In this document: positions 18,865 through 29,937 of the stretch, piece after piece
How the letters are laid out: every line of letters starts with the position of its first letter
How positions within the stretch are numbered: the stretch's first letter is position 1
Source of the DNA: Candidatus Hydrogenedentota bacterium
GTDB lineage: Bacteria > Hydrogenedentota > Hydrogenedentia > Hydrogenedentales > GCA-2746185
DNA: 30,197 nt
Assembly: GCA_030123645.1 (NCBI GenBank)
Contig: JASJYE010000001.1
Coordinates: forward strand, 1-30,197
Direction of reading: 5' to 3'
Position numbers and translations under genes: made by a program
Notes under the pieces: model-generated
Told to the model about the DNA's origin: nothing
What the model saw: only the letters and a program-made list of their open reading frames with translations
Database searches by the model: none

Positions 18865-19707
18865 CACGAATTTTCACCGTCCTTCGCAAGTACTGCTATG
18901 TATCGGCATCATCGAAGTTGCGGCTTCGACTGTTTAAGGCTCAATGATGCCTGCAGTCATCCTGGCCCGTATCGCTCACTGGATTTCGTAACGAGGGAAT
19001 CGAGACGGCTGATACGACCGTGTCTGTTCGAAGGCTTTGGGATGACAACGTGGAAAGTCATGCCGAGGTCGCAAGAATGCGCGCGAGCCGACGCAAACCA
19101 AACCGTTCCTACCAAAAGAACTGAGACGGCTGTCATACACTGACGTGCTTTTTCATCATCTTCCATCTCTGTATGTGGAACACTTCCGCTGACAGCAGTA
19201 CGCACCTCACAAAACTCACTACTTTCGCTGGAGGCTCCTAAGTCCCTGTGCTTGATGCACTAGTCCAAATTCACACAAGCATAAGGCGCGCCATCTCACC
19301 GAGAGCGGCATTTTTCGCCGCTTCTGGGGCGCGAAAGGGCCTATATGGTGGTGATTGGCGAAACCAAGGCGAAATCGCTTTCCTCACGAAGTCATGCAAT
19401 TTTGCAAGAGATTTCGACGAGAGTCCTGCAAGATTGCAAGACTCGCAGCGATTCTCTCTACCGCGTAGGGCACCAGTTTAAGGGGAACGGTCAAACACCA
19501 AGAATCCCTTCACTCAGGTTGGACCATAGAATGGGGGCAGGCCATATCGGCCGTACCGAAACCGACCCCGATGCTAGAGCGACGGGTCTGGAAGCGGTTG
19601 CGCTCGGATAAATCTTCTCGACGATGTCCCCCCGGGGAGTCATAGTACTCTTCTTCGATGTCAACGCTTTGGTGCTTGGATCGACTGGTAGATCTGAGTG
19701 AATCACG

Positions 19708-20283
19708 ATGAATCTTGACCAAAAACACGTCTATCTTCGCTCGTTGACCGTCCTCGTTGCAGTCCTCGGGATTTCGCTGAGCGCGTCCCCGCAGGGTTTC
19801 GAGCGGACCGCCCTGGACGAATACGTCGCCGTGCCCGACCGGAACTACGAGTATTCGGTCGTGGTGGATGAACTGCTCGACGGCTTCCGCCACGTGGTGG
19901 TCGACATGGTGTCGCAACAGTGGCTCACCGAGGAGGAAGTCGACAAGCCCATCTGGTGACACTGGCTGGTACTGGCGGTTCCCGATGAGATCACGTCGAA
20001 CCGCGCGCTGCTCTACATCAGCCGCGGCGATAACGACGATGGACTGCCTGGCCCTAAGCAGCTGACTTCGTACTTGGCGACAGCCACGAAAACTGTGGTG
20101 GCGGAGTTGCGCATGATCCCGAATCAGCCGCTGGTGTTCACGGACGACGGCAAGCCCCGAAAAGAAGACTCCACGATCGCGTACACTTGGGACAACTACA
20201 TGCGCACGGGCGACGAAAAGTGGCCCCTGCGGCTGCCAATGACGAAGGCTGTGGTGCGCGCGATGCGAAAAAACGACCCTTGA
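19708..20283 (+). pseudogene. PhoPQ-activated pathogenicity-related (PqaA-like) exported protein, pseudogene
   Basis: Signal peptide, TALDEYV, DMVSQQWLT, then in-frame TGA at 19957-19959 inside W*HWL. The same frame continues VAELRMIPNQPL, IAYTW, WPLRLPMTKAVVRAM; similarity stops at 20265 (about 185 codons, so truncated). Confidence 0.75.
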
Positions 20284-20372
20284 ACCCAAAGAACTTAAGG
20301 AGTACTCAAGGGAAACCTGATGCCCTATGGGACGACTGTAGAAGGAAATATGGACTTCATCTTGCGTCCCCG

Positions 20373-20462
20373 GCACGCTTGATGCACAAGCTCGATCTGA
20401 ATAGCACCGCGGAAATCATCCGATTTGCTCTGGAGAACGGCATTGTCGGTCAGATAGCGTAA
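20373..20462 (+). pseudogene. C-terminal remnant of a LuxR/NarL-type HTH response regulator
   Basis: ARLMHKLDLNSTAEIIRFALENGI matches the last helices of LuxR-type HTH domains; no receiver domain or recognition helix upstream. Confidence 0.6.
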
Positions 20463-20709: not shown

Positions 20710-21537
20710 GTGAATAACAGTCACAGGGAACAAAGCAAAGGAAGACCCGGCATCAAGAGCCGGCTTCGCAGCACTGTGCTCGTCGTTCTGGGCCTCCTTG
20801 CCGCCGTTCTTCTCGCCATAGCCGTTAAGACCGCCTGGGGCTATCTGGGGGGCCAATCCGTATTGAGCGCCGCCGCGCGTGGCGAAGCGATTGCCGGGCG
20901 CTTTGGCTGTTTTGCTTGTCACGGTCCAAGGGGAAGCGGCGGTGTGGCCGACCCCGCTTCGCCGTCGGGGAACGTCCCCGGCTGGGATCGTGGAACGATG
21001 GTGATGTACGCGCAGAGTGACACCGACTTACGCGACTGGATCTTACACGGCGCGCTCCAAGGCGAATCGGTGGACAAACACCGCGAAACGAGCGCCGGCA
21101 TCATTCCCATGCCGTCCTACGAGGACGAGCTTTCCAAAGGGGAACTTGAAGCGCTACTTGCCTATCTGAAAGTCGTTTCAAATTGGGGTGACGACATCCC
21201 CGACACGGCCTACGACGGCTGGAAGGTTGCGTCCCGAATGGGGTGCTTTGGTTGCCACGGGCCCGGCGGAACGGGTCGTGTTCCCAATCCGGGCAGTCTG
21301 AAGGGCTATATCCCGCCGTGGGACGGAGATGAATTCGCTGAACTGGTCCGAGACGACGACGAACTGCGTGCCTGGATCCTGGACGGCTTTCCTCCGCGGC
21401 TTGGCAAGAACCCTATCGCGCGATATTTCTTGGAAAAGCAGAAAACACCCATGCCCGCCTACCGCGACTACCTGTCCGACAAAGAGGTGGATAACCTGGT
21501 GGCGTACATTCGCTGGACAAGGAAACCACAACCATGA
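20710..21537 (+). CDS. Membrane-anchored dihaem class I cytochrome c (internally duplicated)
   Basis: N-terminal TM, GCFACHG and GCFGCHG, each followed by P-W...LR-WIL-G...PMP-Y; stop overlaps next start (ATGA). Confidence 0.88.
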   Translation: MNNSHREQSKGRPGIKSRLRSTVLVVLGLLAAVLLAIAVKTAWGYLGGQSVLSAAARGEAIAGRFGCFACHGPRGSGGVADPASPSGNVPGWDRGTMVMYAQSDTDLRDWILHGALQGESVDKHRETSAGIIPMPSYEDELSKGELEALLAYLKVVSNWGDDIPDTAYDGWKVASRMGCFGCHGPGGTGRVPNPGSLKGYIPPWDGDEFAELVRDDDELRAWILDGFPPRLGKNPIARYFLEKQKTPMPAYRDYLSDKEVDNLVAYIRWTRKPQP

Positions 21538-23348
21538 CCGGGCATTTTGAAGCAGCTCGGTGGTTAGTGGTGCTCATCGCCTTCGCGGCCGGTCCGGCGC
21601 TAGCCCCCGCAGCCGCGTCGGAGAATCCAAGCGAAGGGAAGGGCGCGTATCGTTCGCCCATCCACGTCTGCCTCTCGCCCGATCGCTCCCGGGCATACGT
21701 AGTCAACCAGACCTCCGACTCCGTATCGGTATTAGACCTTCGGCAGAGGCGAGTGGTCGATGAGCTATCGGTGGGATCTTTCCCTTCGCATGCCGTCTGC
21801 TCGCCGGACGGTCGCCTGCTCTACGTTACGTGCAACTACGATTCTCAAATTCAGGTCGTCGATCTGGAGGCGATGCGAGTGGTCCGGACCATTCCAGCCG
21901 GCTTTGAACCCTATGGATTGGCGTTGTCATCGAAGGGGGAACGCATCGCCGTTGCGAACGCGTTGTCGAGCACCGTTTCCATGTTCGCGGCGAAAGATGG
22001 CGAGCCGCTATGGGAAACGCGGGTGCAACGCAACCCGAAGTACCTGACCATCACGAGGGACGGAACACGCGTCTTGGTCAGCAACGGGCTGTCGCGCAGC
22101 GTCTCCATTCTCGATGGACGCACCGGTGAAATTATGGAAATCCGCGACCTCGGACGGGCCGGTATTTTGCGGCAGGTCGTCTGTTCCCCCGACGACCGGT
22201 GGGCCTTTGTCGCCCATATCATATCTCGTGACGAGATAACGCCTTTTCAGCTCGAACGCGGGTTTGTCCATGCCAACGGGATCTCGATTTTGGACCTCGA
22301 TCGGACCGGCCACCGGGTAACGGTCCTCCTGGACCGGTTCTTGGCCGGGGCGGCGAACCCGTGGGGCCTTGCCCTGTCGGAGAATGCCGAGCGGCTCTAC
22401 GTTAGCCTGGCCGGCGTGCACGAAGTGGCCATTGTTGACGTGCCGGCCCTCTTATCCCTCGTAGCCGAGACGGATACACCCGAAAAGGTAGCCGCGCTCG
22501 AGCGAGATGTGGAGATCATGGACCGCCGGGGCCTCATGCGACGCGTCGATGCCGGGGGTATCGGCCCGCGAGGCCTGGCGCTGAACGAAGCCACGGGCGA
22601 ATTACTGGTCGCCAACTATTTCAGCGATTCGGTCTCCATCCTCGATGCTGAAACCGGGGCCATTCAGGCAGTGATCCCGCTCGGTCCCCCTCAGGAGATG
22701 AGCACCTGGCGTAAGGGAGAGATGCTTTTCAACGATGCCCGGTTGTGTTTCCAGCAATGGTTCAGTTGCGCGAGCTGCCATCAAGAAGACGCAACCGTCG
22801 ACGGCTTCAACTGGGACCTCCCGAACGACGGTGTGGGCAACGCCAAAAACGTCAAGTCCCTTCACGATATTTACGACACCGCCCCGGCGATGTGGACCGC
22901 CGTGCGTAAGGGCATGGACGTTGCCGTGGCCGCGGGTCAACGCTTTCTCGGCTTTCTGCCGGAACCGGAGAATCACCGGGCGTTAATGACGTTCCTCAAG
23001 TCTCCGAGACGTCCCCCCAACCCCTATAAAACGCGCGACCCCGCGATGGTCGAGCGCGGCGAGCGCGTCTTTTACAAGGCCCGATGCCATGCGTGTCATC
23101 CCGCGCCGGTGTTTTCAGACCTGAAACGGCATGATCTCGGCCTGGCAAGTTCCACCGACCTGCGATTCCGTTTTGACACGCCTTCGTTGCGCGAATGTGT
23201 CCGGACAGGCCCGTACTTGCACGATGGCCGCGCTCAAACGCTCCGTGAGATCTTCACGAAGTACAATCCGAACAACCTGCACGGCCTGACGAGCAACCTT
23301 GCGGATTCAGAGTTGCAAGCGTTGCTGGAATACCTACGGAGCCTCTGA
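21534..23348 (+). CDS. Secreted YVTN/YncE beta-propeller fused to CcP/MauG-like dihaem domain
   Basis: Signal peptide; repeats such as SPDRSRAYVVNQTSDSVSVLD and SPDGRLLYV; SCASCH, RCHACH, TPSLR...GPYLHDGRAQTL, HGLTSNL. Confidence 0.85.
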   Translation: MTGHFEAARWLVVLIAFAAGPALAPAAASENPSEGKGAYRSPIHVCLSPDRSRAYVVNQTSDSVSVLDLRQRRVVDELSVGSFPSHAVCSPDGRLLYVTCNYDSQIQVVDLEAMRVVRTIPAGFEPYGLALSSKGERIAVANALSSTVSMFAAKDGEPLWETRVQRNPKYLTITRDGTRVLVSNGLSRSVSILDGRTGEIMEIRDLGRAGILRQVVCSPDDRWAFVAHIISRDEITPFQLERGFVHANGISILDLDRTGHRVTVLLDRFLAGAANPWGLALSENAERLYVSLAGVHEVAIVDVPALLSLVAETDTPEKVAALERDVEIMDRRGLMRRVDAGGIGPRGLALNEATGELLVANYFSDSVSILDAETGAIQAVIPLGPPQEMSTWRKGEMLFNDARLCFQQWFSCASCHQEDATVDGFNWDLPNDGVGNAKNVKSLHDIYDTAPAMWTAVRKGMDVAVAAGQRFLGFLPEPENHRALMTFLKSPRRPPNPYKTRDPAMVERGERVFYKARCHACHPAPVFSDLKRHDLGLASSTDLRFRFDTPSLRECVRTGPYLHDGRAQTLREIFTKYNPNNLHGLTSNLADSELQALLEYLRSL

Positions 23349-23352
23349 TGGC

Positions 23353-26300
23353 ATGAAAGCCCGTACGCCCAGATGTCTTAGGTCTCGCGCCAAAATAGAT
23401 TTGCTAAGATCGCAAAAAAAGGGGACAGTCCCGTCTACGCTCGTGCCTCGCTTCGCTTGGTACAGTCCCCAATTTTTGCTAACACCCTCGAACAGACTTG
23501 GAAAGGTTATTTCGATCAAATCCTTTAGCACCGGCTTCCTGCTGATGGGAGTCCTGCTCTGCTATGGCATTGACGGAGGCGCGGAGACGATAGAGCGCGC
23601 CGGGGAAAAACGGGGACTGTACCAAGCGCAGCGAGGTACGAGCGGAGACGGGACTGTCCCCGTTTTTCCCGCCACCAACGCAGAAGAAGTCCAACCCATC
23701 TCGCGACCCTCTCGCTTCGGCGTTCTTAGTAGCCGGCGCTGGGCCTATGGCCGGCCCTATGAGCGAGAGAGTCTCGCGCCCGTCAAGAACCCGAATCCCC
23801 GTCCTGAACCACAGCCCACCCGCGACCATCCCTTCGACGTGGCGATCTCCGGCGACGGCAGCAAAGTGTACGTGGGCCTCCAGGGCACGGAACTGCAACC
23901 GGGCAATGAAGTGGCCGTTTACGATGTTGCGAGCGATCGGGTAACGAAACGCATCCGCTTGATACCGCCGGGTGAGAATGGGGCGCCGGGCTTGAGTCCG
24001 TACCGGCTGACGGCTCATCCCGGCGGCAGGTTTCTCCTTGTCACCAATCGCTTTTCGAATTTCGCGAGCGTTATCGATATGCGTAGCGATACGGTCGTGA
24101 GCGAAATCCCTTTAGACTTCTACTGTCAGGGAGTCGCTTTCGATCGAGCCGGCCGCACCCTCTACGTCGCCAACCGATACCTGGACCAAGCCTTCGTGGT
24201 TGACGTACACGCCGAGGGAGAACGCTTCGACGGGTCCATGAGGATTCTCGGCGGCTTGGACGCGGACGCGTTCCTGGGCAATACGACCGGGGCCGGTCTG
24301 CATTCCATGCTGGCGCGCCGTTGCGGCACGATCGGATGCCACGATGCGCTTCGAGGAGGATTCGTTGCAGGCGCGGACCCGCTCGATAGTTTCTCCTCCG
24401 TTATCCCCCACGTGTCGCTCGGCAATCCGGCCAAGAGCCGATTGCTGCGGGCCGTTCTGCGTAGCCGCGACGGCGGATACGCGGACGCGATACCGAAGTT
24501 TCGCAGTCACGCAGCGGGCACGGTGGTGTTCCCGGACCCCCGCAACGACACCGATTACCAATCTATCGCGAGTTGGATTGCCGCGAGCGCCCCCGGCCCC
24601 GGCATCCCCGTAGCGAACGTGCGGAGTAAGCCGAAGGTGTGCGTCCTGTCCACCGATGGGCGGTATCTCTACGTGGGCAATACGGGTACGCAGGACATTT
24701 CGATAGTCGATACCCGTCTCAATCGCGAGGTCGGCGGCATTTACATACAAAATGTCGCAAACGATTTGGGAATCTACCACGATCCCCAAAGCGGCCATGA
24801 CTACCTCATCGTAACGACCCAAGGCATCGGATTCGGAGTGGGCCGGGAACGGGACCCCTACGGTGGCGAGACCTGGGACCGCGAAAATCCGGCGGCGCAA
24901 TTCACGGTCTGGCGCGATCTGGAGACGGCTCGCGCGTTTCCCAGGGAGCGCCAGGAAGTGCTGGGCCCCTTCGACGCCGTGGACGGTACGGCCGCCATCA
25001 AGTTCCGCGACATTCAAAACGACCTTCTATTCTTGGACCTAAGTGCCCTCGAGATCCCGAGCGATCCCCCCTCCGGCCAATTGGACTATGTGCTGCTGGC
25101 AAATAAATACGAATCGCACCGCGACTGGGTGCGGTATACTTCGGACACTGCGGAGTCCACGTATGGGGATATCAAGGGCGACATCCCCCCGGACCTCATG
25201 CGGGTTGTCGGTGCCATGCCCGAAAAACTGGTGATCGTGGGAGACCGCCTGTTTGTGACTATGCAGGCAAGCAATCTGGTCCAGGAACTACAGATAAACC
25301 CCAATGCGCCCGATCCCAGTGACTATCTTATACCCCTGCGCACCTATCCAACAGGTCTTCAGCCCATAGGGATTGTGGCCGGGCCTCCTGGGACGCCCTC
25401 AGAAGGCAAGCTCTTTGTGGCGAACTTCTTAGGGGGGTCAATTTCGGTTATCGATACCAGAAACGGAAGCTCCCGGGAAGTGGTGGTTGACCCCTCGGTC
25501 CTCCGCATACCCGTGCCCGCAACCAATGCGGAACGTGGGGAGGTTTTCGCACACTCCGCCGAGTTCTCTTCGGACGGCGATACGTCGTGTTTCCATTGCC
25601 ATTACCTGGATACGGGAGACGGCCGGCCTTGGGGCGTCAGCCAGGTCGTGGGCCAGGAATTCCTCTCGATCGAGGATGAGGTCGGCCAGTTGGCGATAGG
25701 GGGTACGATGGGGGTGCCTCAGATGCGGGGACTGTTTGCCATTCAACCCTTCTTTTTTGAAGGGGTCATTTCAGCCTTTGAACCGCGATCCATGATCATG
25801 GAACACGCACCCGCCGATGATTTCGCTCGCGCCACGCCGCAGGGAGATTTTACGGCCATCGAGGCCCATTACATTCAGACCGCGGCGGCCGACATCCAGT
25901 CCGGCGTGGATGCCTCGGCCAAATCCCAGGCTACCCATGACGAACGCCGCGACGAAATGTTTCGCCGCCAATCCATGAAGTATTTCGGCAAGTCTTTCAA
26001 TCTTCGAGATTTCCAGCGCTTCGTGGGCGAGTGGCAGATCCACGAACCCCGGCTTCTGCCCAATCCCTTTGACCCAGACCACCCCTCCGTGCGCCGCGGG
26101 AAGAAACTCTTCGAAGACCCGCAAGTCGGTTGCGCGGCGTGCCATGTTTCCCCCCATTTCACCAGAAAGGATTTTCGTGAAAACAAGGAACAGGCCTTCG
26201 AGTCCATGGTTACGTTTACCGTGCGCGACGGGGCATTTACGCTGATAGGAATGAACCGCCTCGATTACATCAATGGATATCTCAGGGATTTGGAACCCTG

Positions 26301-26667
26301 GGACATCGGCCGGGTCGAAGCAAACCAGGGCCACTTCACGACCTTTTCACTCCGGGGCATTTGGGACCGGCCCCCTGTTTTCCTTCACAACGGAATGGCA
26401 CGCACCCTTCGTGAGGTGGTGGCCAAACCGGGCCATCCCGGTCTGGGCACATTCAAATACGAACCACGCATTGGAGGCGTTCCCGAGCGGCCGGGTCGCA
26501 AGGAGGTCGGGTTTAACACCACGTACCTCTTCGCCGAGGCCGTTCCCGCGGTGAAAGCGCACATCAAAGCGGGATCGCGGATCGGCTTCGACACCCACGG
26601 CGGCACCTCGCAGTTGACGCGGCAGCAAATCGATGACCTGGTCAATTTCATAAACACTATAGAATGA
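23353..26667 (+). CDS. Large beta-propeller + CX4CH haem domain + CcP-like dihaem protein (start uncertain)
   Basis: Propeller repeats (ISGDGSKVYV, FDRAGRTLYVANRY, STDGRYLYVGN), CGTIGCH, SCFHCH, GCAACH, SLRGIWDRPPVFLHNG, HGGTSQL. Frame is open from 23299; possible ATGs at 23353 and 23545. Stop overlaps next ATG. Confidence 0.8.
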   Translation: MKARTPRCLRSRAKIDLLRSQKKGTVPSTLVPRFAWYSPQFLLTPSNRLGKVISIKSFSTGFLLMGVLLCYGIDGGAETIERAGEKRGLYQAQRGTSGDGTVPVFPATNAEEVQPISRPSRFGVLSSRRWAYGRPYERESLAPVKNPNPRPEPQPTRDHPFDVAISGDGSKVYVGLQGTELQPGNEVAVYDVASDRVTKRIRLIPPGENGAPGLSPYRLTAHPGGRFLLVTNRFSNFASVIDMRSDTVVSEIPLDFYCQGVAFDRAGRTLYVANRYLDQAFVVDVHAEGERFDGSMRILGGLDADAFLGNTTGAGLHSMLARRCGTIGCHDALRGGFVAGADPLDSFSSVIPHVSLGNPAKSRLLRAVLRSRDGGYADAIPKFRSHAAGTVVFPDPRNDTDYQSIASWIAASAPGPGIPVANVRSKPKVCVLSTDGRYLYVGNTGTQDISIVDTRLNREVGGIYIQNVANDLGIYHDPQSGHDYLIVTTQGIGFGVGRERDPYGGETWDRENPAAQFTVWRDLETARAFPRERQEVLGPFDAVDGTAAIKFRDIQNDLLFLDLSALEIPSDPPSGQLDYVLLANKYESHRDWVRYTSDTAESTYGDIKGDIPPDLMRVVGAMPEKLVIVGDRLFVTMQASNLVQELQINPNAPDPSDYLIPLRTYPTGLQPIGIVAGPPGTPSEGKLFVANFLGGSISVIDTRNGSSREVVVDPSVLRIPVPATNAERGEVFAHSAEFSSDGDTSCFHCHYLDTGDGRPWGVSQVVGQEFLSIEDEVGQLAIGGTMGVPQMRGLFAIQPFFFEGVISAFEPRSMIMEHAPADDFARATPQGDFTAIEAHYIQTAAADIQSGVDASAKSQATHDERRDEMFRRQSMKYFGKSFNLRDFQRFVGEWQIHEPRLLPNPFDPDHPSVRRGKKLFEDPQVGCAACHVSPHFTRKDFRENKEQAFESMVTFTVRDGAFTLIGMNRLDYINGYLRDLEPWDIGRVEANQGHFTTFSLRGIWDRPPVFLHNGMARTLREVVAKPGHPGLGTFKYEPRIGGVPERPGRKEVGFNTTYLFAEAVPAVKAHIKAGSRIGFDTHGGTSQLTRQQIDDLVNFINTIE
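23412..23479. repeat. 68-bp hairpin (REP/MITE-like) element, copy 1
   Basis: Arms GCAAAAAAAGGGGAC / GTCCCCAATTTTTGC (13/15 complementary). The core 23421-23470 is the reverse complement of 23612-23661 at 47/50. Confidence 0.85.
23603..23670. repeat. 68-bp hairpin (REP/MITE-like) element, copy 2, inverted relative to copy 1
   Basis: Perfect 15-bp arms GGGAAAAACGGGGAC / GTCCCCGTTTTTCCC; read in frame as EKRGLYQAQRGTSGDGTVPVFP. Confidence 0.85.
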
Positions 26668-27707
26668 AAATGAACAAACTCATTGGAAATCTTTCGTGTA
26701 GGCGCGCCGCTCCCGCACTCGCGGTCTGTGCAATCCTGGCATCCGGGCTGGCCGGGGCGCAGGCCTTGCGATACGAAGAGATCGTCCACGAAAAGGATGA
26801 ATCCGTCATGCTGATTGTTCCGGCGTCGGAGTTTCTTATGGGAACCGGCGAGCAGCATCCGGATCTCCCGGAAGATTTTTCCACGGAGGGTTCCCTTTCA
26901 CCTCGGGACGTGCTGATCGTCCGCGCGGCGCCCGCTTGGCGACACGCCGACGAACGCCCCGCTCGACGGGTGAGGCTCGATGCCTTTGCCATCGACCGCT
27001 ACGAAGTGACGAACGCCCAGTATCGTACGTTTCTGAAAGTGATTCGCGAAACGAAGGACCACGGGCGGTGCCACCCCGGCGAGCCGGCCGGGAAAGATCA
27101 CACACCTCGCTACTGGGGACACTACAATCCCTTACTCGAAGACCCCGCCTACCGAAAGACCGCGCCCTTTGGGCCGGATACGTTTACGCGGGAAGACAGG
27201 CCGGTCGTGGGCGTTGACTGGTTCGACGCCTACGCCTATGCGGCGTGGGCCGGCAAGCGATTGCCTTCCGAAGCCGAATGGGAACGGGCTGCCCGTGGGC
27301 AAGATGGACGCCGCTGGCCCTGGGGCGATGCGTGGCAATGGCGACTGGCCAACGGGGGCGGTGAGAAGAAGGGGCAGGACATTCAGGACACGGGCACCGA
27401 GAAGGACGGGTACATTTATGCCGCGCCCGTGGGCAGCTACCCGAAAGGGCGTAGCCCCGTCGGATCCGATGACATGGCCGGCAACGTGGCGGAATGGTGC
27501 GCCGACTGGTACCAGGGCGACTATTACGCCTCGGCGCCGGAAGAGAACCCAAGCGGGCCGGGCCGTGGCACATATCGGGTCGTGCGTGGCGGCAGTTCCC
27601 GGAACGCCCCCAGTAACATGCGTTGCGCGGTTCGCGGCTATCACGAACCGGAGTTCAAGACCTTTACGCTCGGATTTCGCTGCGCAAAGGATTGGGAGGG
27701 GCATTAA
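26664..27707 (+). CDS. Secreted FGE-sulfatase (SUMF1/PvdO/NirV-like) fold protein
   Basis: Signal peptide; FLMG, YEVTNAQY, PVVGVDWFDA, RLPSEAEWERAARG, DMAGNVAEW, RVVRGGS, GFRCA; no CxxxxC after RGGS. Confidence 0.88.
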   Translation: MKMNKLIGNLSCRRAAPALAVCAILASGLAGAQALRYEEIVHEKDESVMLIVPASEFLMGTGEQHPDLPEDFSTEGSLSPRDVLIVRAAPAWRHADERPARRVRLDAFAIDRYEVTNAQYRTFLKVIRETKDHGRCHPGEPAGKDHTPRYWGHYNPLLEDPAYRKTAPFGPDTFTREDRPVVGVDWFDAYAYAAWAGKRLPSEAEWERAARGQDGRRWPWGDAWQWRLANGGGEKKGQDIQDTGTEKDGYIYAAPVGSYPKGRSPVGSDDMAGNVAEWCADWYQGDYYASAPEENPSGPGRGTYRVVRGGSSRNAPSNMRCAVRGYHEPEFKTFTLGFRCAKDWEGH

Positions 27708-28757
27708 GTGTTGCTGCTCGCATTGCATCTGTTGATCCAGCCCTTGGCGGGCCTGGAGGCGCCGGAGGGTATGGTCTTCGTGCCGGCCGGACCGTTCTTC
27801 ATGGGTTCGAGCGAAGGGGGCGCCGATGAGGCGCCGCCCCGCCGGGTTGATGTATCCGCGTTCTTTATCGACATGCGCGAAGTAACGAACGCAGCCTTCG
27901 CCGATTTCGTTCTAGAGACGGAATTCTTCGACCGGATCGAGGGGCCCTGGTTCCGGTATTCGGCGGAGGGCTGCCTGGCTTTGATGCGCCATTACGAGCG
28001 AAGGGGCGGTGACTTTCCGGCTGCCGCTTCCGCCGGCAGACTCGAGGACGATCGCATTTCGGAATCGGACTTGGCCCGTTGGCGTTCGGCCGTCACCGCG
28101 TTAAAAGCCATGCTGCCTGAGGAGGAAATGGTCCCCGACGGTGCAACCGTTTCTCAGTTTGAAAGACTACCCGCCGTGCTAAACTTAGTAGAAGAGCAGG
28201 CCCTACTGCCGGTGCGTGGCGTCACGTGGCGGGACGCCACGGCCTACGCCGAATGGGCCGGGAAGCGGCTGCCCACGGAAGCCGAATGGGAGAAAGCGGC
28301 CAGGGGCGTTGACAGCCGCCTTTATCCCTGGGGGAATGCGTGGGATTCGCGGCGCTGCTCAGGGGACTCGCCACGGAGAGACGGACCCGCGCGGGTCGGA
28401 AGTTTTCCTGACGGCGCGAGTCCCTACGGCTGTCTCGATATGGCGGGAAACGTCTGGGAATGGGTTGCGGACTGGTACGGCGAGTCGTATTACGCCCAAG
28501 CGCCGGTCGTCGCCGATCCCAAGGGTCCTAAGGGATTGCCGAACGGGCAGTTGCCCATGCCGGCCGAAAACGTTGACAAATTGCGCTCGACCGAACAGGG
28601 GCGGGAAACCGATACACGCAAGGTTATTCGGGGAGGAGGTTGGACGGGTCCCAAACACCAGACGCGTTTCAATCTCCGGTGTTCCAGACGGTTCTGGAGC
28701 AACCCCTCATACTGGCACGAAGACGTGGGTTTTCGTTGCGTAAAGGAGGTGACATGA
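27708..28757 (+). CDS. Second FGE-sulfatase fold protein
   Basis: GMVFVPAGPFFMGS, EVTNAAF, PVRGVTWRDA, RLPTEAEWEKAARG, DMAGNVWEW, KVIRGGGW, GFRCV; hydrophobic N-terminus; GTG directly follows the previous TAA. Confidence 0.88.
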   Translation: MLLLALHLLIQPLAGLEAPEGMVFVPAGPFFMGSSEGGADEAPPRRVDVSAFFIDMREVTNAAFADFVLETEFFDRIEGPWFRYSAEGCLALMRHYERRGGDFPAAASAGRLEDDRISESDLARWRSAVTALKAMLPEEEMVPDGATVSQFERLPAVLNLVEEQALLPVRGVTWRDATAYAEWAGKRLPTEAEWEKAARGVDSRLYPWGNAWDSRRCSGDSPRRDGPARVGSFPDGASPYGCLDMAGNVWEWVADWYGESYYAQAPVVADPKGPKGLPNGQLPMPAENVDKLRSTEQGRETDTRKVIRGGGWTGPKHQTRFNLRCSRRFWSNPSYWHEDVGFRCVKEVT

Positions 28758-28758
28758 A

Positions 28759-29937
28759 ATGAAAGTATTAGATACCGAAACAGCGGCACGCACAGGAGTG
28801 GACGTGTCGGAAGTAGAGCGAGATTCTTGTACGGAATTCTATCTAACGGGCTCGATAGCTATGGACTATGCCAAGGATTCGTCGACGAACGCCCTTTTCT
28901 CTGAATTGGCCGATATCCTCGCCCGCGACGGAATTCAAGTGATCCAGGAAAAGGTGTACGGACTTCGCACCGCGAAGGAGGCCATCATGAAAGCCCGTGA
29001 TGCCGCCTTGGCGGAGCATGGCCTGGACCCGGCGCTGCCCGTGACTTTTCTAGAGGGGAAGCCGGCACGGCACGGGGACTTCGCGGGCTTCCAGTTGTGG
29101 GGCGTCGTCCCGAACCCGGGAAAAGACGTGCAGGTCACGACGGTCAAGAACTCCCTGGGAGGCAGTGGGCGTTGTCTGGCGGGCGAAGGCTTCCGCTTGT
29201 TCTATTTCCCCATGATTAACGGCGCGCGAAGCGACGGCGCCCTGCCTGATTGCGTTACCGGGCAGACCGACCAAATGTTCCAAAACGCCAGCGCCACGCT
29301 ATCCGCCCATAACCTCACGTTCAAAGACGTGCCTCGGACCTGGATCTATTTGGCGAGGATTCTGGACTGGTATGGCGAATTCAACCGGGTCCGCACCGAA
29401 CACTTTGAAAAAGTGGGGCTGCGGCGCGGAGATCCTGAGACGGTGTTCCCCGCCAGCACGGGAATTCAAGGCCAATCCCACGATGAAGAATGCGTCATGG
29501 ACATATTGGCCTTAGAAAACCTGGAAGAGGGCGCCGTGGAGCTAACGCCCATCCGCGAGACCTCGCGTCAGAACCAGGCCTTTGCCTACGGGTCGGCTTT
29601 TTCGCGCGCCATGTCCGTCAAGCGCGAAGGAGTCAACACCGTGTACGTCTCAGGTACGGCAAGCATCAACGCAAAGGGCGAAACACTGTATCAAGGCGAC
29701 GCGGAAGCTCAGAGCGTCGAGACACTCCTGAGTATCGGAGCGCTACTCGAAGACCAAGGCGGCAGCCTGCAAAACATCTGCCAGGCCACCCTGTTCTGCA
29801 AGGACCGCGAGTCGTTCGAGGCCTACGAACGCGTAGCCCGGCAACTCAACGTGCCCCATTTTCCCACGGTCAGCGTCATCGCGGACGTCTGCCGCCACGA
29901 CCTGTCAATCGAGATTGAAGCCACGGCCGTTATCTAA
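28759..29937 (+). CDS. Rid (YjgF/YER057c/UK114)-fold enzyme, FkbO/Hyg5 chorismatase-like, cytoplasmic
   Basis: RTWIYL, FNRVR, FPASTGI, SAFSRA, YVSGTASI, ADVCRHDLSIEIEA; strong RBS AAGGAGG; no signal peptide. Confidence 0.75.
   Translation: MKVLDTETAARTGVDVSEVERDSCTEFYLTGSIAMDYAKDSSTNALFSELADILARDGIQVIQEKVYGLRTAKEAIMKARDAALAEHGLDPALPVTFLEGKPARHGDFAGFQLWGVVPNPGKDVQVTTVKNSLGGSGRCLAGEGFRLFYFPMINGARSDGALPDCVTGQTDQMFQNASATLSAHNLTFKDVPRTWIYLARILDWYGEFNRVRTEHFEKVGLRRGDPETVFPASTGIQGQSHDEECVMDILALENLEEGAVELTPIRETSRQNQAFAYGSAFSRAMSVKREGVNTVYVSGTASINAKGETLYQGDAEAQSVETLLSIGALLEDQGGSLQNICQATLFCKDRESFEAYERVARQLNVPHFPTVSVIADVCRHDLSIEIEATAVI

What the first reader, a model, noticed from the sequence alone, without database searches (positions are those of the whole stretch)
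21534..23348. Hydrazine-synthase beta-gamma-like architecture in a non-anammox-looking context
Seen: YVTN propeller followed by a CcP-like dihaem domain. The Trp in APAMW sits where bCcP/MauG have the inter-haem Trp (manual alignment). A Tyr (TKY) falls at the position of the bCcP distal Met / MauG Tyr294, 17 residues after the P of PYLHDG. A C-terminal HGLTSNL is shared with the paralogue (HGGTSQL) and offers a His alternative. Known: HzsB is a propeller, HzsC a CcP-like dihaem, and they are fused in Scalindua; His/Tyr ligation enables MauG bis-Fe(IV). Inference: a non-classical peroxidase-family catalyst; the haem-2 ligand (His vs Tyr) decides the chemistry.
Basis: partly seen in the sequence, partly recalled or inferred. 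Interest (0 to 1): 0.7.

Follow-up and report, generated by a model that had tools for sequence, protein, structure and literature searches.

The report
Hydrazine-synthase-like dihaem propeller protein

Summary
ORF 21534-23348 (+) encodes a 604-aa exported protein: a 7-bladed YVTN propeller followed by a dihaem CcP/MauG/HzsC-type domain. Its nearest solved structures are HzsB and HzsC (5C2V). Trp454 sits at the inter-haem Trp position. Tyr577 sits at the bCcP-Met / MauG-Tyr294 position. The motif HGLTSNL is shared with the downstream paralogue.

- **Haem 2 ligand.** His583 aligns with HzsC His332, the crystallographic distal ligand of bis-His haem gammaII, and is conserved. Position 577 is His/Tyr/Phe/Gln/Asn/Arg in orthologues and hypervariable in the wider family. 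Bis-His ligation is therefore the likely state, and MauG-type His/Tyr chemistry is unlikely.
- **Not a hydrazine synthase.** The score is 209 bits against a cut-off of 1250. The equivalents of gammaCys165, gammaAsp168 and gammaHis144 are missing, and no HzsA homologue was found.
- **Prior publication.** Fused beta-gamma homologues outside anammox bacteria were published in 2025 (PMC12758564). That paper lists an orthologue of this protein.

Two things are new here. First, a six-gene cassette (dihaem cytochrome c, this protein, a ~1040-aa paralogue, two Cys-less FGE-fold proteins, an FkbO/Rid-like protein) is conserved in at least five phyla. Second, the cytochrome c is fused to the protein in some orthologues, including Lacunisphaera. 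The substrate is unknown.

The parts
20710..21537 (+). Membrane-anchored dihaem class-I cytochrome c (275 aa; CFACH, CFGCH). Its stop overlaps the start of the next gene (ATGA). Proposed electron partner.
   Evidence: Pfam Cytochrom_C/Cytochrome_CBB3; N-terminal hydrophobic stretch and haem motifs. Found directly upstream in orthologous loci. Fused to the N-terminus of the orthologue in the ~845-aa forms, e.g. Lacunisphaera limnophila.
21534..23348 (+). The finding: a 604-aa exported YVTN propeller + dihaem HzsC/CcP/MauG-type protein (P0001).
21534..21617 (+). Sec-type signal peptide (residues 1-28, ending in an Ala-rich cleavage region).
   Evidence: Read from the sequence. Residues 7-23 are modelled as a helix and residues 19-36 have low pLDDT.
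21645..22685 (+). Seven-bladed YVTN beta-propeller (residues ~38-384) with a helical insertion at 303-331.
   Evidence: pLDDT above 90 for most of it, 28 strands. Best Foldseek hit is HzsB 5c2v_B, E 1.7e-27, TM 0.89 normalised by the target, rmsd 2.5 A. phmmer E 4e-40.
22215..22277 (+). Conserved propeller loop (residues 228-248, Q-L-E-R-G core). It aligns with the HzsB segment containing CEAENGQ, which by my estimated numbering offset (not verified) is the loop that approaches the substrate tunnel in HZS.
   Evidence: Family-wide conservation: Q239 74/93, E/D241 77/93, G243 91/93. Alignment to HzsB. Residues 234-244 have low pLDDT. The tunnel-loop role in HZS is quoted from PMC12607021.
22686..23345 (+). 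Dihaem domain (residues 385-604).
   Evidence: Domain model pLDDT 88.8. VIA-align Z 19.5 to HzsC against 14.9-13.0 for MbnH, YhjA, BccP, MauG and BthA. Profile E 2.9e-46 to HzsC.
22767..22781 (+). Haem 1 attachment motif CASCH (C412, C415, proximal H416). Presumed catalytic haem.
   Evidence: Invariant in 145 representatives. Aligns with HzsC C102/C105/H106.
22893..22895 (+). Trp454, at the inter-haem position of bCcP/MauG Trp and HzsC His144.
   Evidence: W in 121/121 orthologues but only 34/145 in the wider family.
23085..23099 (+). Haem 2 attachment motif CHACH (C518, C521, proximal H522).
   Evidence: Aligns with the HzsC motif that holds His229.
23262..23264 (+). Tyr577 (TAC), at the bCcP Met / MauG Tyr294 position. 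Probably second-sphere and not a ligand.
23280..23282 (+). His583 (first residue of HGLTSNL). Proposed distal ligand of haem 2, equivalent to HzsC His332.
23545..26667 (+). Large paralogue (about 1040 aa from ATG 23545; the open frame begins at TTG 23299). It has propeller repeats, a CX4CH insert, and a divergent dihaem domain ending in HGGTSQL. It is always the next gene in orthologous loci.
   Evidence: Not HzsA-like.
26664..27707 (+). FGE-sulfatase-fold protein 1 (exported; lacks the FGE catalytic Cys pair).
   Evidence: Pfam PF03781 E 3e-58. Sequence and orthologue alignment. Conserved in the cassette.
27708..28757 (+). FGE-sulfatase-fold protein 2 (exported; lacks the FGE catalytic Cys pair).
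   Evidence: Pfam PF03781 E 1.4e-55
28759..29937 (+). FkbO/Hyg5-like double Rid-fold protein with no signal peptide. Last gene of the cassette.
   Evidence: Pfam Ribonuc_L-PSP and NCBIfam TIGR04444 at 51 bits against a cut-off of 325. Conserved in the cassette.

Best explanation
The protein is a periplasmic enzyme of the hydrazine-synthase beta-gamma type. It is a member of a very large, uncharacterised family related to HzsBC, and it is not a hydrazine synthase.

Proposed mechanism:
1. The membrane-anchored dihaem cytochrome c encoded just upstream exchanges electrons with haem 2. That cytochrome is translationally coupled here and fused to the enzyme in some orthologues, including that of Lacunisphaera.
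2. Haem 2 is a low-spin bis-His haem (His522/His583), as in HzsC haem gammaII.
3. Electrons pass, probably via the subfamily-invariant Trp454, to haem 1 (proximal His416).
4. Haem 1 has no conserved protein distal ligand and is the catalytic site. A strongly conserved propeller loop (residues 228-248, Gln239/Glu241/Arg242) probably caps it, as the HzsB loop does in HZS.
5. My committed guess for the chemistry is reduction of a small oxidant (peroxide or an N-oxide such as NO) at haem 1.

The enzyme acts within a horizontally mobile six-gene cassette that also holds a large paralogue, two non-catalytic-type FGE-fold proteins and an FkbO/Rid-like protein.

Shown here: fold, homology, haem motifs, residue equivalences, conservation, cassette synteny and the fusion. 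Inferred: ligand identity, electron path, role of the loop. Speculative: the substrate.
For: - **Homology and fold.** NCBIfam hydrazine_BC E 1.2e-61. phmmer to 5c2v_B 4e-40 and to 5c2v_C 2e-23. For the propeller, Foldseek gives E 1.7e-27 and TM 0.89 to HzsB. For the dihaem domain, Foldseek gives E 1.3e-11 and VIA-align gives Z 19.5 to HzsC, against Z <= 14.9 for MbnH, CcP and MauG.
- **Haem 2 ligand.** HzsC gammaII is ligated by His229 and His332 (PMC12607021). With the chain-to-paper offset of 39, fixed by C102/C105/H106, His332 is the H of DMHGRTSHL. That His aligns with His583 in both a pairwise and a profile alignment. His583 is invariant in the 30 aligned orthologues, present in 113/145 diverse representatives, and invariant in the paralogue family.
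- **Position 577.** It tolerates Phe, Gln, Asn and Arg in orthologues.
- **Trp454.** W in 121/121 orthologues.
- **Electron partner.** The cytochrome c gene overlaps the start codon. It is conserved upstream in 6 of 8 orthologous loci by tblastn. It is fused N-terminally in the ~845-aa forms such as AOS45601.1.
- **Cassette.** The paralogue follows this gene in 8 of 8 orthologous loci, FGE genes are present in 7, and an FkbO-like gene in 5. These loci come from Cloacimonadota, Planctomycetota, Verrucomicrobiota, Myxococcales and Elusimicrobia, plus the Lacunisphaera locus and one more.
- **Horizontal transfer.** None of 120 other genomes of the same phylum has a copy above about 46% identity.
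- **Propeller loop.** Its conservation is shown.
Against: - No coordinates could be inspected, so haem ligation rests on alignment and conservation alone.
- His at position 577 can ligate haem in this fold: the Y294H-MauG structure 3ORV exists (it appears in the lists), and its bis-His ligation is from my recollection of the literature. His577 in most orthologues, or Tyr577 here, therefore remains physically possible.
- The HZS gammaI catalytic residues (Cys165 thioether, Asp168) are not conserved, so HZS-like NO reduction is not specifically supported.
- The bCcP catalytic region also aligns poorly.
- The nar/Rrf2 neighbourhood that hints at N-oxides is not conserved elsewhere.
- A cytoplasmic FkbO-like enzyme in the cassette, and DAHP synthase genes beside it in some loci, fit a biosynthetic or oxidative-maturation role better than simple detoxification.
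Confidence: 0.5

Rival explanations
1. MauG/BthA/MbnH-like oxidative enzyme. Tyr577 is the distal ligand of haem 2, and with Trp454 between the haems the enzyme reaches a bis-Fe(IV) state. It then oxidises a partner protein (the large paralogue or an FGE-fold protein) or an organic substrate.
For: Tyr577 occupies the MauG Tyr294 / bCcP Met column. Trp454 is invariant in orthologues. Co-conserved partner proteins recall MauG-preMADH and MbnH-MbnP. MbnH and MauG are clear structural relatives (Z 14.9 and 14.7).
Against: Only 11 of 119 orthologues have Tyr at 577; 99 have His, 6 have Phe, and Gln, Asn and Arg occur once each. The wider family is hypervariable at this position. The conserved His583 matches the crystallographic His332 ligand of HzsC. 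NCBIfam MauG and MbnH scores of 48-49 bits are far below their cut-offs of 444 and 363. From my recollection of the literature, replacing MauG Tyr294 by His abolishes the bis-Fe(IV) state, so most orthologues could not use this chemistry.
Confidence: 0.12
2. Oxidative maturation or biosynthetic enzyme without Tyr ligation. The cassette makes or modifies a metabolite or cofactor (for example one derived from chorismate through the FkbO-like enzyme). The two propeller-dihaem proteins and the FGE-fold proteins carry out periplasmic oxidative steps, with the cytochrome c carrying electrons away.
For: The FkbO/Hyg5-like gene is a constant cassette member. DAHP synthase genes lie beside the cassette in L004 and L011, and the same protein cluster lies next to a family member in L075. 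FGE-fold proteins without the FGE cysteines include periplasmic maturation factors such as PvdO (NCBIfam weak hit). Across the wider family an FGE-fold domain is fused to the HzsA-like neighbour.
Against: The FkbO assignment is weak (51 bits against a cut-off of 325). No transporter or carrier gene is conserved in the cassette. A low-potential bis-His haem is typical of reductive enzymes (HZS gammaII about -330 mV).
Confidence: 0.22
3. Ordinary bacterial cytochrome c peroxidase that merely carries an extra propeller: H2O2 detoxification with classical geometry.
For: PF03150 CCP_MauG is above its cut-off (34.3 against 25.6 bits). The inter-haem Trp is present. bCcPs are structural relatives (Z 14.7).
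Against: There is no Met at the ligand position, in this protein or in the family. HzsC is clearly the closer relative. The obligate propeller, paralogue and FGE partners are unlike ccp loci.
Confidence: 0.1
4. A true or cryptic hydrazine synthase, or anammox-like N-N bond chemistry.
For: Best database and structural matches are HzsB and HzsC. A nitrate reductase lies next door in this genome.
Against: 209 bits against a cut-off of 1250. gammaCys165, gammaAsp168 and gammaHis144 are not conserved. No HzsA or HZS_alpha match in the genome. The downstream partner is not HzsA-like. PMC12758564 reaches the same conclusion for such homologues.
Confidence: 0.02

Closest known systems
Hydrazine synthase beta-gamma (HzsB + HzsC of Kuenenia stuttgartiensis, PDB 5C2V; fused HzsBC of Scalindua, NCBIfam NF052342)
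   Same: Same domain order as the fused form. The 7-bladed YVTN propeller superposes on HzsB (TM 0.89 normalised by the target). The dihaem domain is closest to HzsC (Z 19.5, 32% identity over 216 residues). Both CxxCH motifs are present. The WDL-x-(N/D)-(D/E)-G motif and the C-terminal HG-x-TS-x-L motif, which holds the distal His of the bis-His haem, are shared. The conserved propeller loop has an acidic residue.
   Different: Far below the family cut-off. No third thioether Cys (gammaCys165). No gammaAsp168. Trp in place of gammaHis144. No alpha subunit. Different partner genes (dihaem cytochrome c, large paralogue, FGE-fold proteins, FkbO-like protein). Non-anammox host.
Non-anammox HZS beta-gamma homologues described by Hagglund et al. 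2025 (PMC12758564), clades I-IV
   Same: Fused beta-gamma architecture, two canonical haem motifs, Trp in place of gammaHis144, key HZS residues lost. The Lacunisphaera orthologue AOS45601.1 is listed in that paper's supplementary table.
   Different: Those clades were defined by co-location with an HzsA homologue, often with a CRTAC1/FG-GAP gene and ABC-transporter genes. This subfamily has no HzsA-like neighbour and instead has the cassette of cytochrome c, paralogue, two FGE-fold genes and an FkbO-like gene. A text search of that paper found no mention of sulfatase or formylglycine.
MauG / MbnH / BthA (His/Tyr dihaem enzymes)
   Same: Same dihaem fold (Z 13-15). Inter-haem Trp. A Tyr in this particular protein at the Tyr294 column. 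Co-encoded candidate partner proteins.
   Different: The Tyr is not conserved in orthologues (mostly His, also Phe). A conserved His six residues downstream matches the HzsC ligand. Scores are far below family cut-offs. An N-terminal propeller is present.
Bacterial dihaem cytochrome c peroxidase (e.g. P. aeruginosa CcP, Shewanella BccP 3O5C)
   Same: Fold, two haems, inter-haem Trp, PY-x-HDG motif.
   Different: No Met ligand. The family has three more residues than bCcPs in the segment that ends at the HG motif. Fused propeller.

Membership tests
Hydrazine synthase beta-gamma (NF052342 / NF052340 / NF052341) | Score at or above the curated NCBIfam cut-off | tested here: not met
   208.8 bits against 1250 (BC fusion), 154.8 against 560 (beta), 85 against 625 (gamma).
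Hydrazine synthase beta-gamma (NF052342 / NF052340 / NF052341) | Seven-bladed YVTN propeller followed by, or partnered with, a CcP-like dihaem subunit | tested here: met
Hydrazine synthase beta-gamma (NF052342 / NF052340 / NF052341) | Third covalent haem link through gammaCys165, and proton-donor gammaAsp168 at haem gammaI | tested here: not met
   Cys165 lies in an HzsC insertion that is absent here. Asp168 aligns with Phe471 or falls in the same insertion.
Hydrazine synthase beta-gamma (NF052342 / NF052340 / NF052341) | gammaHis144 at the inter-haem position | tested here: not met
   Trp454 aligns there.
Hydrazine synthase beta-gamma (NF052342 / NF052340 / NF052341) | Bis-His haem gammaII (His229/His332) | tested here: met
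   Sequence equivalents His522 and His583 are present and conserved. Actual ligation was not observed.
Hydrazine synthase beta-gamma (NF052342 / NF052340 / NF052341) | Alpha subunit (HzsA) encoded with it | tested here: not met
   No PF18582 or NF052339 match in the own genome, which is 83% complete, so absence is not proven. The downstream gene is not HzsA-like: BLASTP gave nothing and hhalign gave probability 2%. tblastn with the window's proteins accounted for the cassette genes in the 8 orthologous loci; their other neighbours were not scanned for the HZS_alpha domain.
MauG-type His/Tyr dihaem enzymes (TIGR03791, TIGR04039 and relatives) | Conserved Tyr axial ligand of the C-terminal haem (MauG Tyr294 column) | tested here: inconclusive
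   Tyr577 is present in this protein, but orthologues have H 99, Y 11, F 6, Q 1, N 1, R 1. Ligation cannot be read from sequence.
MauG-type His/Tyr dihaem enzymes (TIGR03791, TIGR04039 and relatives) | Score at or above the curated cut-off | tested here: not met
   MauG 48.3 against 443.85; MbnH family 49.4 against 362.85.
MauG-type His/Tyr dihaem enzymes (TIGR03791, TIGR04039 and relatives) | Inter-haem Trp | tested here: met
   Trp454.
MauG-type His/Tyr dihaem enzymes (TIGR03791, TIGR04039 and relatives) | Formation of a bis-Fe(IV) state | not testable with these tools
   Needs spectroscopy after H2O2 treatment.
Bacterial dihaem cytochrome c peroxidase (PF03150) | Pfam CCP_MauG domain above the gathering score | tested here: met
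   34.3 against 25.6 bits, but only residues 395-424 match. The fold match is Z 14.7.
Bacterial dihaem cytochrome c peroxidase (PF03150) | His/Met high-potential haem (Met 17 residues after the P of PY-x-HDG) | tested here: not met
   Tyr here. In the family the position is His, Phe and other residues; only 1 Met among the 145 representatives.

The most novel reading that the evidence does not exclude
The six-gene cassette (cytochrome c, HzsBC-like enzyme, giant paralogue, two Cys-less FGE-fold proteins, FkbO/Rid-like enzyme) is a horizontally mobile periplasmic redox pathway with chemistry not yet described. It would belong to the pool of pre-existing haem proteins from which hydrazine synthase evolved. 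In this reading the propeller loop and haem 1 form a new kind of active site, and the FGE-fold proteins take the place that the HzsA-like/FGE fusion occupies in the wider family.
Probability: 0.15. Interest if true: 0.8.

Novelty: new variant of a known kind. Interest (0 to 1): 0.45.

Why it matters
Hydrazine synthase is one of the most unusual enzymes of the nitrogen cycle, and its origin is debated. The uncharacterised homologues outside anammox bacteria are the only handle on what the ancestral scaffold did.

This locus gives a well-defined subfamily to test:
- a clear prediction for haem ligation (bis-His, with position 577 in the second sphere);
- a named electron partner, supported by a gene fusion;
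- a conserved set of partner genes;
- cultured carriers (Lacunisphaera limnophila, Pelagicoccus sp.).

Against that, the existence of such homologues and the loss of the HZS key residues are already published, so the surprise is moderate.

Tried and rejected
- **Complex prediction** of P0001 (residues 38-604) with FGE-fold protein 1: no verdict (score 0.01, mark 0.32). It says nothing either way.
- **Is the 1122-aa paralogue an HzsA-like alpha subunit?** Pfam gave no HZS_alpha match. phmmer against PDB hit only propeller and gamma-like pieces. BLASTP against an HzsA-like/FGE protein found nothing. hhalign gave probability 2%, a 28-column match around a haem motif. Rejected.
- **N-oxide role from the nar/narK/Rrf2 neighbourhood.** tblastn with NarG, the Nar-linked cytochrome and Rrf2 found no match in any of the 80 related loci. 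This is kept only as a weak hint for this genome.
- **FGE-fold genes as true sulfatase-maturing enzymes.** The catalytic Cys pair is missing in both proteins, in their orthologues and in the fused forms. Rejected.
- **Full-length AlphaFold model with a 30-sequence alignment.** The haem regions came out below pLDDT 50. The domain was re-folded with 127 sequences. No tool returned coordinates, so Fe-ligand geometry could not be measured.
- **Literature and database look-ups.** The Dietl et al. 2015 structure paper is not held, so ligand numbers were taken from PMC12607021. The protein atlas returned only generic names (first attempt failed). Earlier scan notes hold no look-alike of this protein.


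Full report
**What is there.** ORF 21534-23348 (+) encodes a 604-aa protein, P0001.
- It has a Sec-type signal peptide (residues 1-28).
- It has two CxxCH motifs: CASCH at 412-416 and CHACH at 518-522.
- Pfam and NCBIfam give YVTN/lactonase propeller matches over about residues 38-380, followed by CCP_MauG and Cytochrom_C.
- The top NCBIfam hit is the hydrazine synthase beta-gamma fusion model: E 1.2e-61, 208.8 bits, against a cut-off of 1250.
- phmmer against PDB sequences puts HzsB (5c2v_B, 4e-40) and HzsC (5c2v_C, 2e-23) on top.

**Fold.**
- The full-length model has a confident seven-bladed propeller (28 strands) with a helical insertion at 303-331. Its best Foldseek match is HzsB: E 1.7e-27, TM 0.89 normalised by the target, rmsd 2.5 A.
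- The haem domain was poorly modelled with 30 sequences. Re-folded alone with a 127-sequence alignment it reached pLDDT 88.8.
- Its best match is HzsC: Foldseek E 1.3e-11, and VIA-align Z 19.5 with 216 residues aligned at 32% identity.
- The other relatives score lower: MbnH 14.9, YhjA 14.8, BccP 14.7, MauG 14.7, BthA 13.0, RoxA 10.4.
- A family profile gives E 2.9e-46 to HzsC, against 8e-19 for the best bCcP, 4e-17 for MbnH and 6e-10 for MauG.

**The three residue claims.**
- *Trp454.* It aligns with the W of FWDGR in the Nitrosomonas and Paracoccus bCcPs. It also aligns with HzsC gammaHis144, which PMC12758564 equates with the CcP/MauG Trp. It is W in 121 of 121 close homologues but only 34 of 145 diverse family representatives.
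- *Tyr577.* It lies 17 residues after the P of PYLHDG. The same profile column holds the bCcP Met (3o5c). Through an ungapped 40-residue stretch it also holds MauG chain residue 294. This agrees with the known Pro258/Met275 spacing in P. aeruginosa CcP and Pro277/Tyr294 in MauG (established knowledge).
- *His583.* HGLTSNL begins with His583, and the paralogue ends with HGGTSQL.

**Which residue binds haem 2?** Four lines of evidence bear on this.
- PMC12607021 states that HzsC haem gammaII is coordinated by His229 and His332.
- The PDB chain index differs from the paper's numbering by 39. This offset is fixed by C102/C105/H106, which are chain residues 63/66/67. It makes chain His190 equal to His229, the CxxCH histidine. 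It makes chain His293, in DMHGRTSHL, equal to His332.
- That histidine aligns with His583 in both the pairwise and the profile alignments. HzsC has Thr/Val around the 577 column.
- His583 is invariant in the 30 aligned orthologues, present in 113 of 145 representatives, and invariant in the paralogue family. Position 577 is H 99, Y 11, F 6, Q 1, N 1, R 1 in orthologues and H 29, F 21, G 20, R 17, Y 15 and others in the wider family.

A position that accepts Phe, Gly and Arg is not an obligatory axial ligand. My best inference is bis-His haem 2 (His522/His583), with residue 577 packing nearby. I put this at about 70-75%, Tyr577 ligation at about 15%, and the rest on something else. No coordinates were available, so this is inference from homology.

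**Not a hydrazine synthase.**
- gammaCys165, the third thioether, lies in an HzsC insertion that is missing here.
- gammaAsp168, the proposed proton donor, aligns with Phe471 or falls in the same insertion.
- gammaHis144 is replaced by Trp.
- No HZS_alpha domain or HzsA family match exists in the 83%-complete genome.

One feature is shared. A propeller loop (residues 228-248) aligns with an HzsB segment containing CEAENGQ. The loop is strongly conserved family-wide: Gln239 in 74/93, Glu/Asp241 in 77/93, Gly243 in 91/93. By my estimated numbering offset this corresponds to the beta 245-260 loop that approaches the HZS tunnel. I infer that the loop helps to form the haem 1 pocket.

**Family and context.**
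- The family is very large. There were 1314 hits among the 8000 scored candidates and 8010 representative clusters at E <= 1e-3 for the haem domain. Relatives were found in at least 567 contig stretches of the collection that holds one genome per species.
- Two tiers appear: an orthologous group at 50-68% identity and a broad group at 34-41%.
- All eight orthologous loci carry the large paralogue directly downstream. They come from Cloacimonadota, Planctomycetota, Verrucomicrobiota including Pelagicoccus sp., Myxococcales and Elusimicrobia. Seven carry FGE-fold genes, six carry the dihaem cytochrome c upstream, and five carry the FkbO-like gene.
- Lacunisphaera limnophila and one further locus show the same set.
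- In the ~845-aa forms the cytochrome c is fused to the N-terminus.
- In the window the genes overlap or abut: ATGA at 21534 and at 26664.
- None of 120 other genomes of the same phylum has a copy above about 46% identity. The cassette was therefore most likely acquired horizontally.
- The nar/ACIII neighbourhood is not conserved elsewhere.

**Wider family.**
- In the 34-41% tier the usual same-strand neighbour is an 850-1280-aa protein carrying the Pfam HZS_alpha middle domain, often fused to a C-terminal FGE-sulfatase fold. This is the alpha/beta-gamma pairing reported in PMC12758564.
- An FkbO/Rid-like gene often follows. Sulfatase and malectin genes follow in some Pirellulales loci.
- Neither the FGE-fold proteins of the window nor the fused ones have the FGE catalytic Cys pair.
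- The window's large paralogue is not HzsA-like.
- DAHP synthase genes lie beside the cassette in two loci.

**Prior knowledge.**
- Hagglund et al. 2025 (PMC12758564) searched for HZS homologues and found more than 100 RefSeq hits to a fused beta-gamma query in diverse phyla. They noted the conserved Trp in place of gammaHis144 and concluded that key residues are not conserved.
- Their supplementary table lists AOS45601.1 of Lacunisphaera limnophila as the HZS-B/C hit. That protein is P0090, an orthologue about 51-53% identical to P0001 with the same cassette.
- The paper's text does not mention sulfatase or formylglycine.
- Earlier notes of this scan describe HzsA-like/FGE fusions in other genomes. 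None holds a look-alike of this protein.

**Verdict.**
- The protein is a member of a published but functionally uncharacterised group of HZS beta-gamma homologues. Within that group it belongs to a subfamily with its own conserved, mobile six-gene cassette.
- The likely mechanism is cytochrome-c-linked redox catalysis at an open haem 1, with a bis-His haem 2 and Trp454 as relay.
- The substrate is unknown. My committed guess is reduction of a small oxidant, and an oxidative maturation role is the main rival.
- Interest is moderate at 0.45: the family is relevant to the origin of hydrazine synthase, but the surprise is reduced by prior publication and by the weak case for His/Tyr chemistry.

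Noticed in passing
window 19702-20462 (+): The spacer between the Rrf2-nar operon and the cassette holds two same-frame ORF pieces (19702-19959 and 19960-20283) separated by a single stop codon. A short frame follows that ends in a LuxR-type helix-turn-helix-like tail (20380-20462). They look like gene remnants.
   Followed up: no
L023:6366-9833, L024:3129-6536, L055:3027-6863, L076:5964-9299: Next to the 34-41%-identity relatives lie 1100-1280-aa proteins that combine the Pfam HZS_alpha middle domain, two CxxCH motifs and a C-terminal FGE-sulfatase fold without the FGE cysteine pair. The FGE fold is thus a recurrent partner of HZS-like proteins, either fused or stand-alone.
   Followed up: partly
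L004:18038-19243 (-), L011:13835-14893 (+), L075 gene just upstream of the family member: A class-I DAHP synthase gene lies beside the cassette or the family member. Together with the FkbO/Hyg5-like gene this hints at a dedicated chorismate branch.
   Followed up: partly
L084:10001-12538 (Lacunisphaera limnophila CP016094) and other ~845-aa forms: The upstream dihaem cytochrome c is fused to the N-terminus of the propeller-dihaem protein. In Lacunisphaera the FkbO-like region appears to be split into three short genes.
   Followed up: partly
L055:11992-16561 and L076:11431-15067: In Kiritimatiellae and Lentisphaerae MAGs, three tandem FkbO/Rid-like genes follow the family member. In L055 a NirD/L-type (sirohaem decarboxylase-like) gene comes next.
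   Followed up: no
window 24322-24342 (CX4CH motif of the large paralogue): hhalign aligned the segment around the CGTIGCH motif with the second haem motif of the HzsA-like/FGE proteins (V-L-D-K-x-C-x-x-C-H). The match is 28 columns with E 0.025 and probability 2%, so it is not significant.
   Followed up: partly
own phylum, 120 other genomes: 67 of the 120 other genomes carry a broad-family member at 35-46% identity. None carries the orthologous type, and only 1 of 12 genomes in the window's own family has any match. The distribution is patchy and suggests gene transfer.
   Followed up: partly
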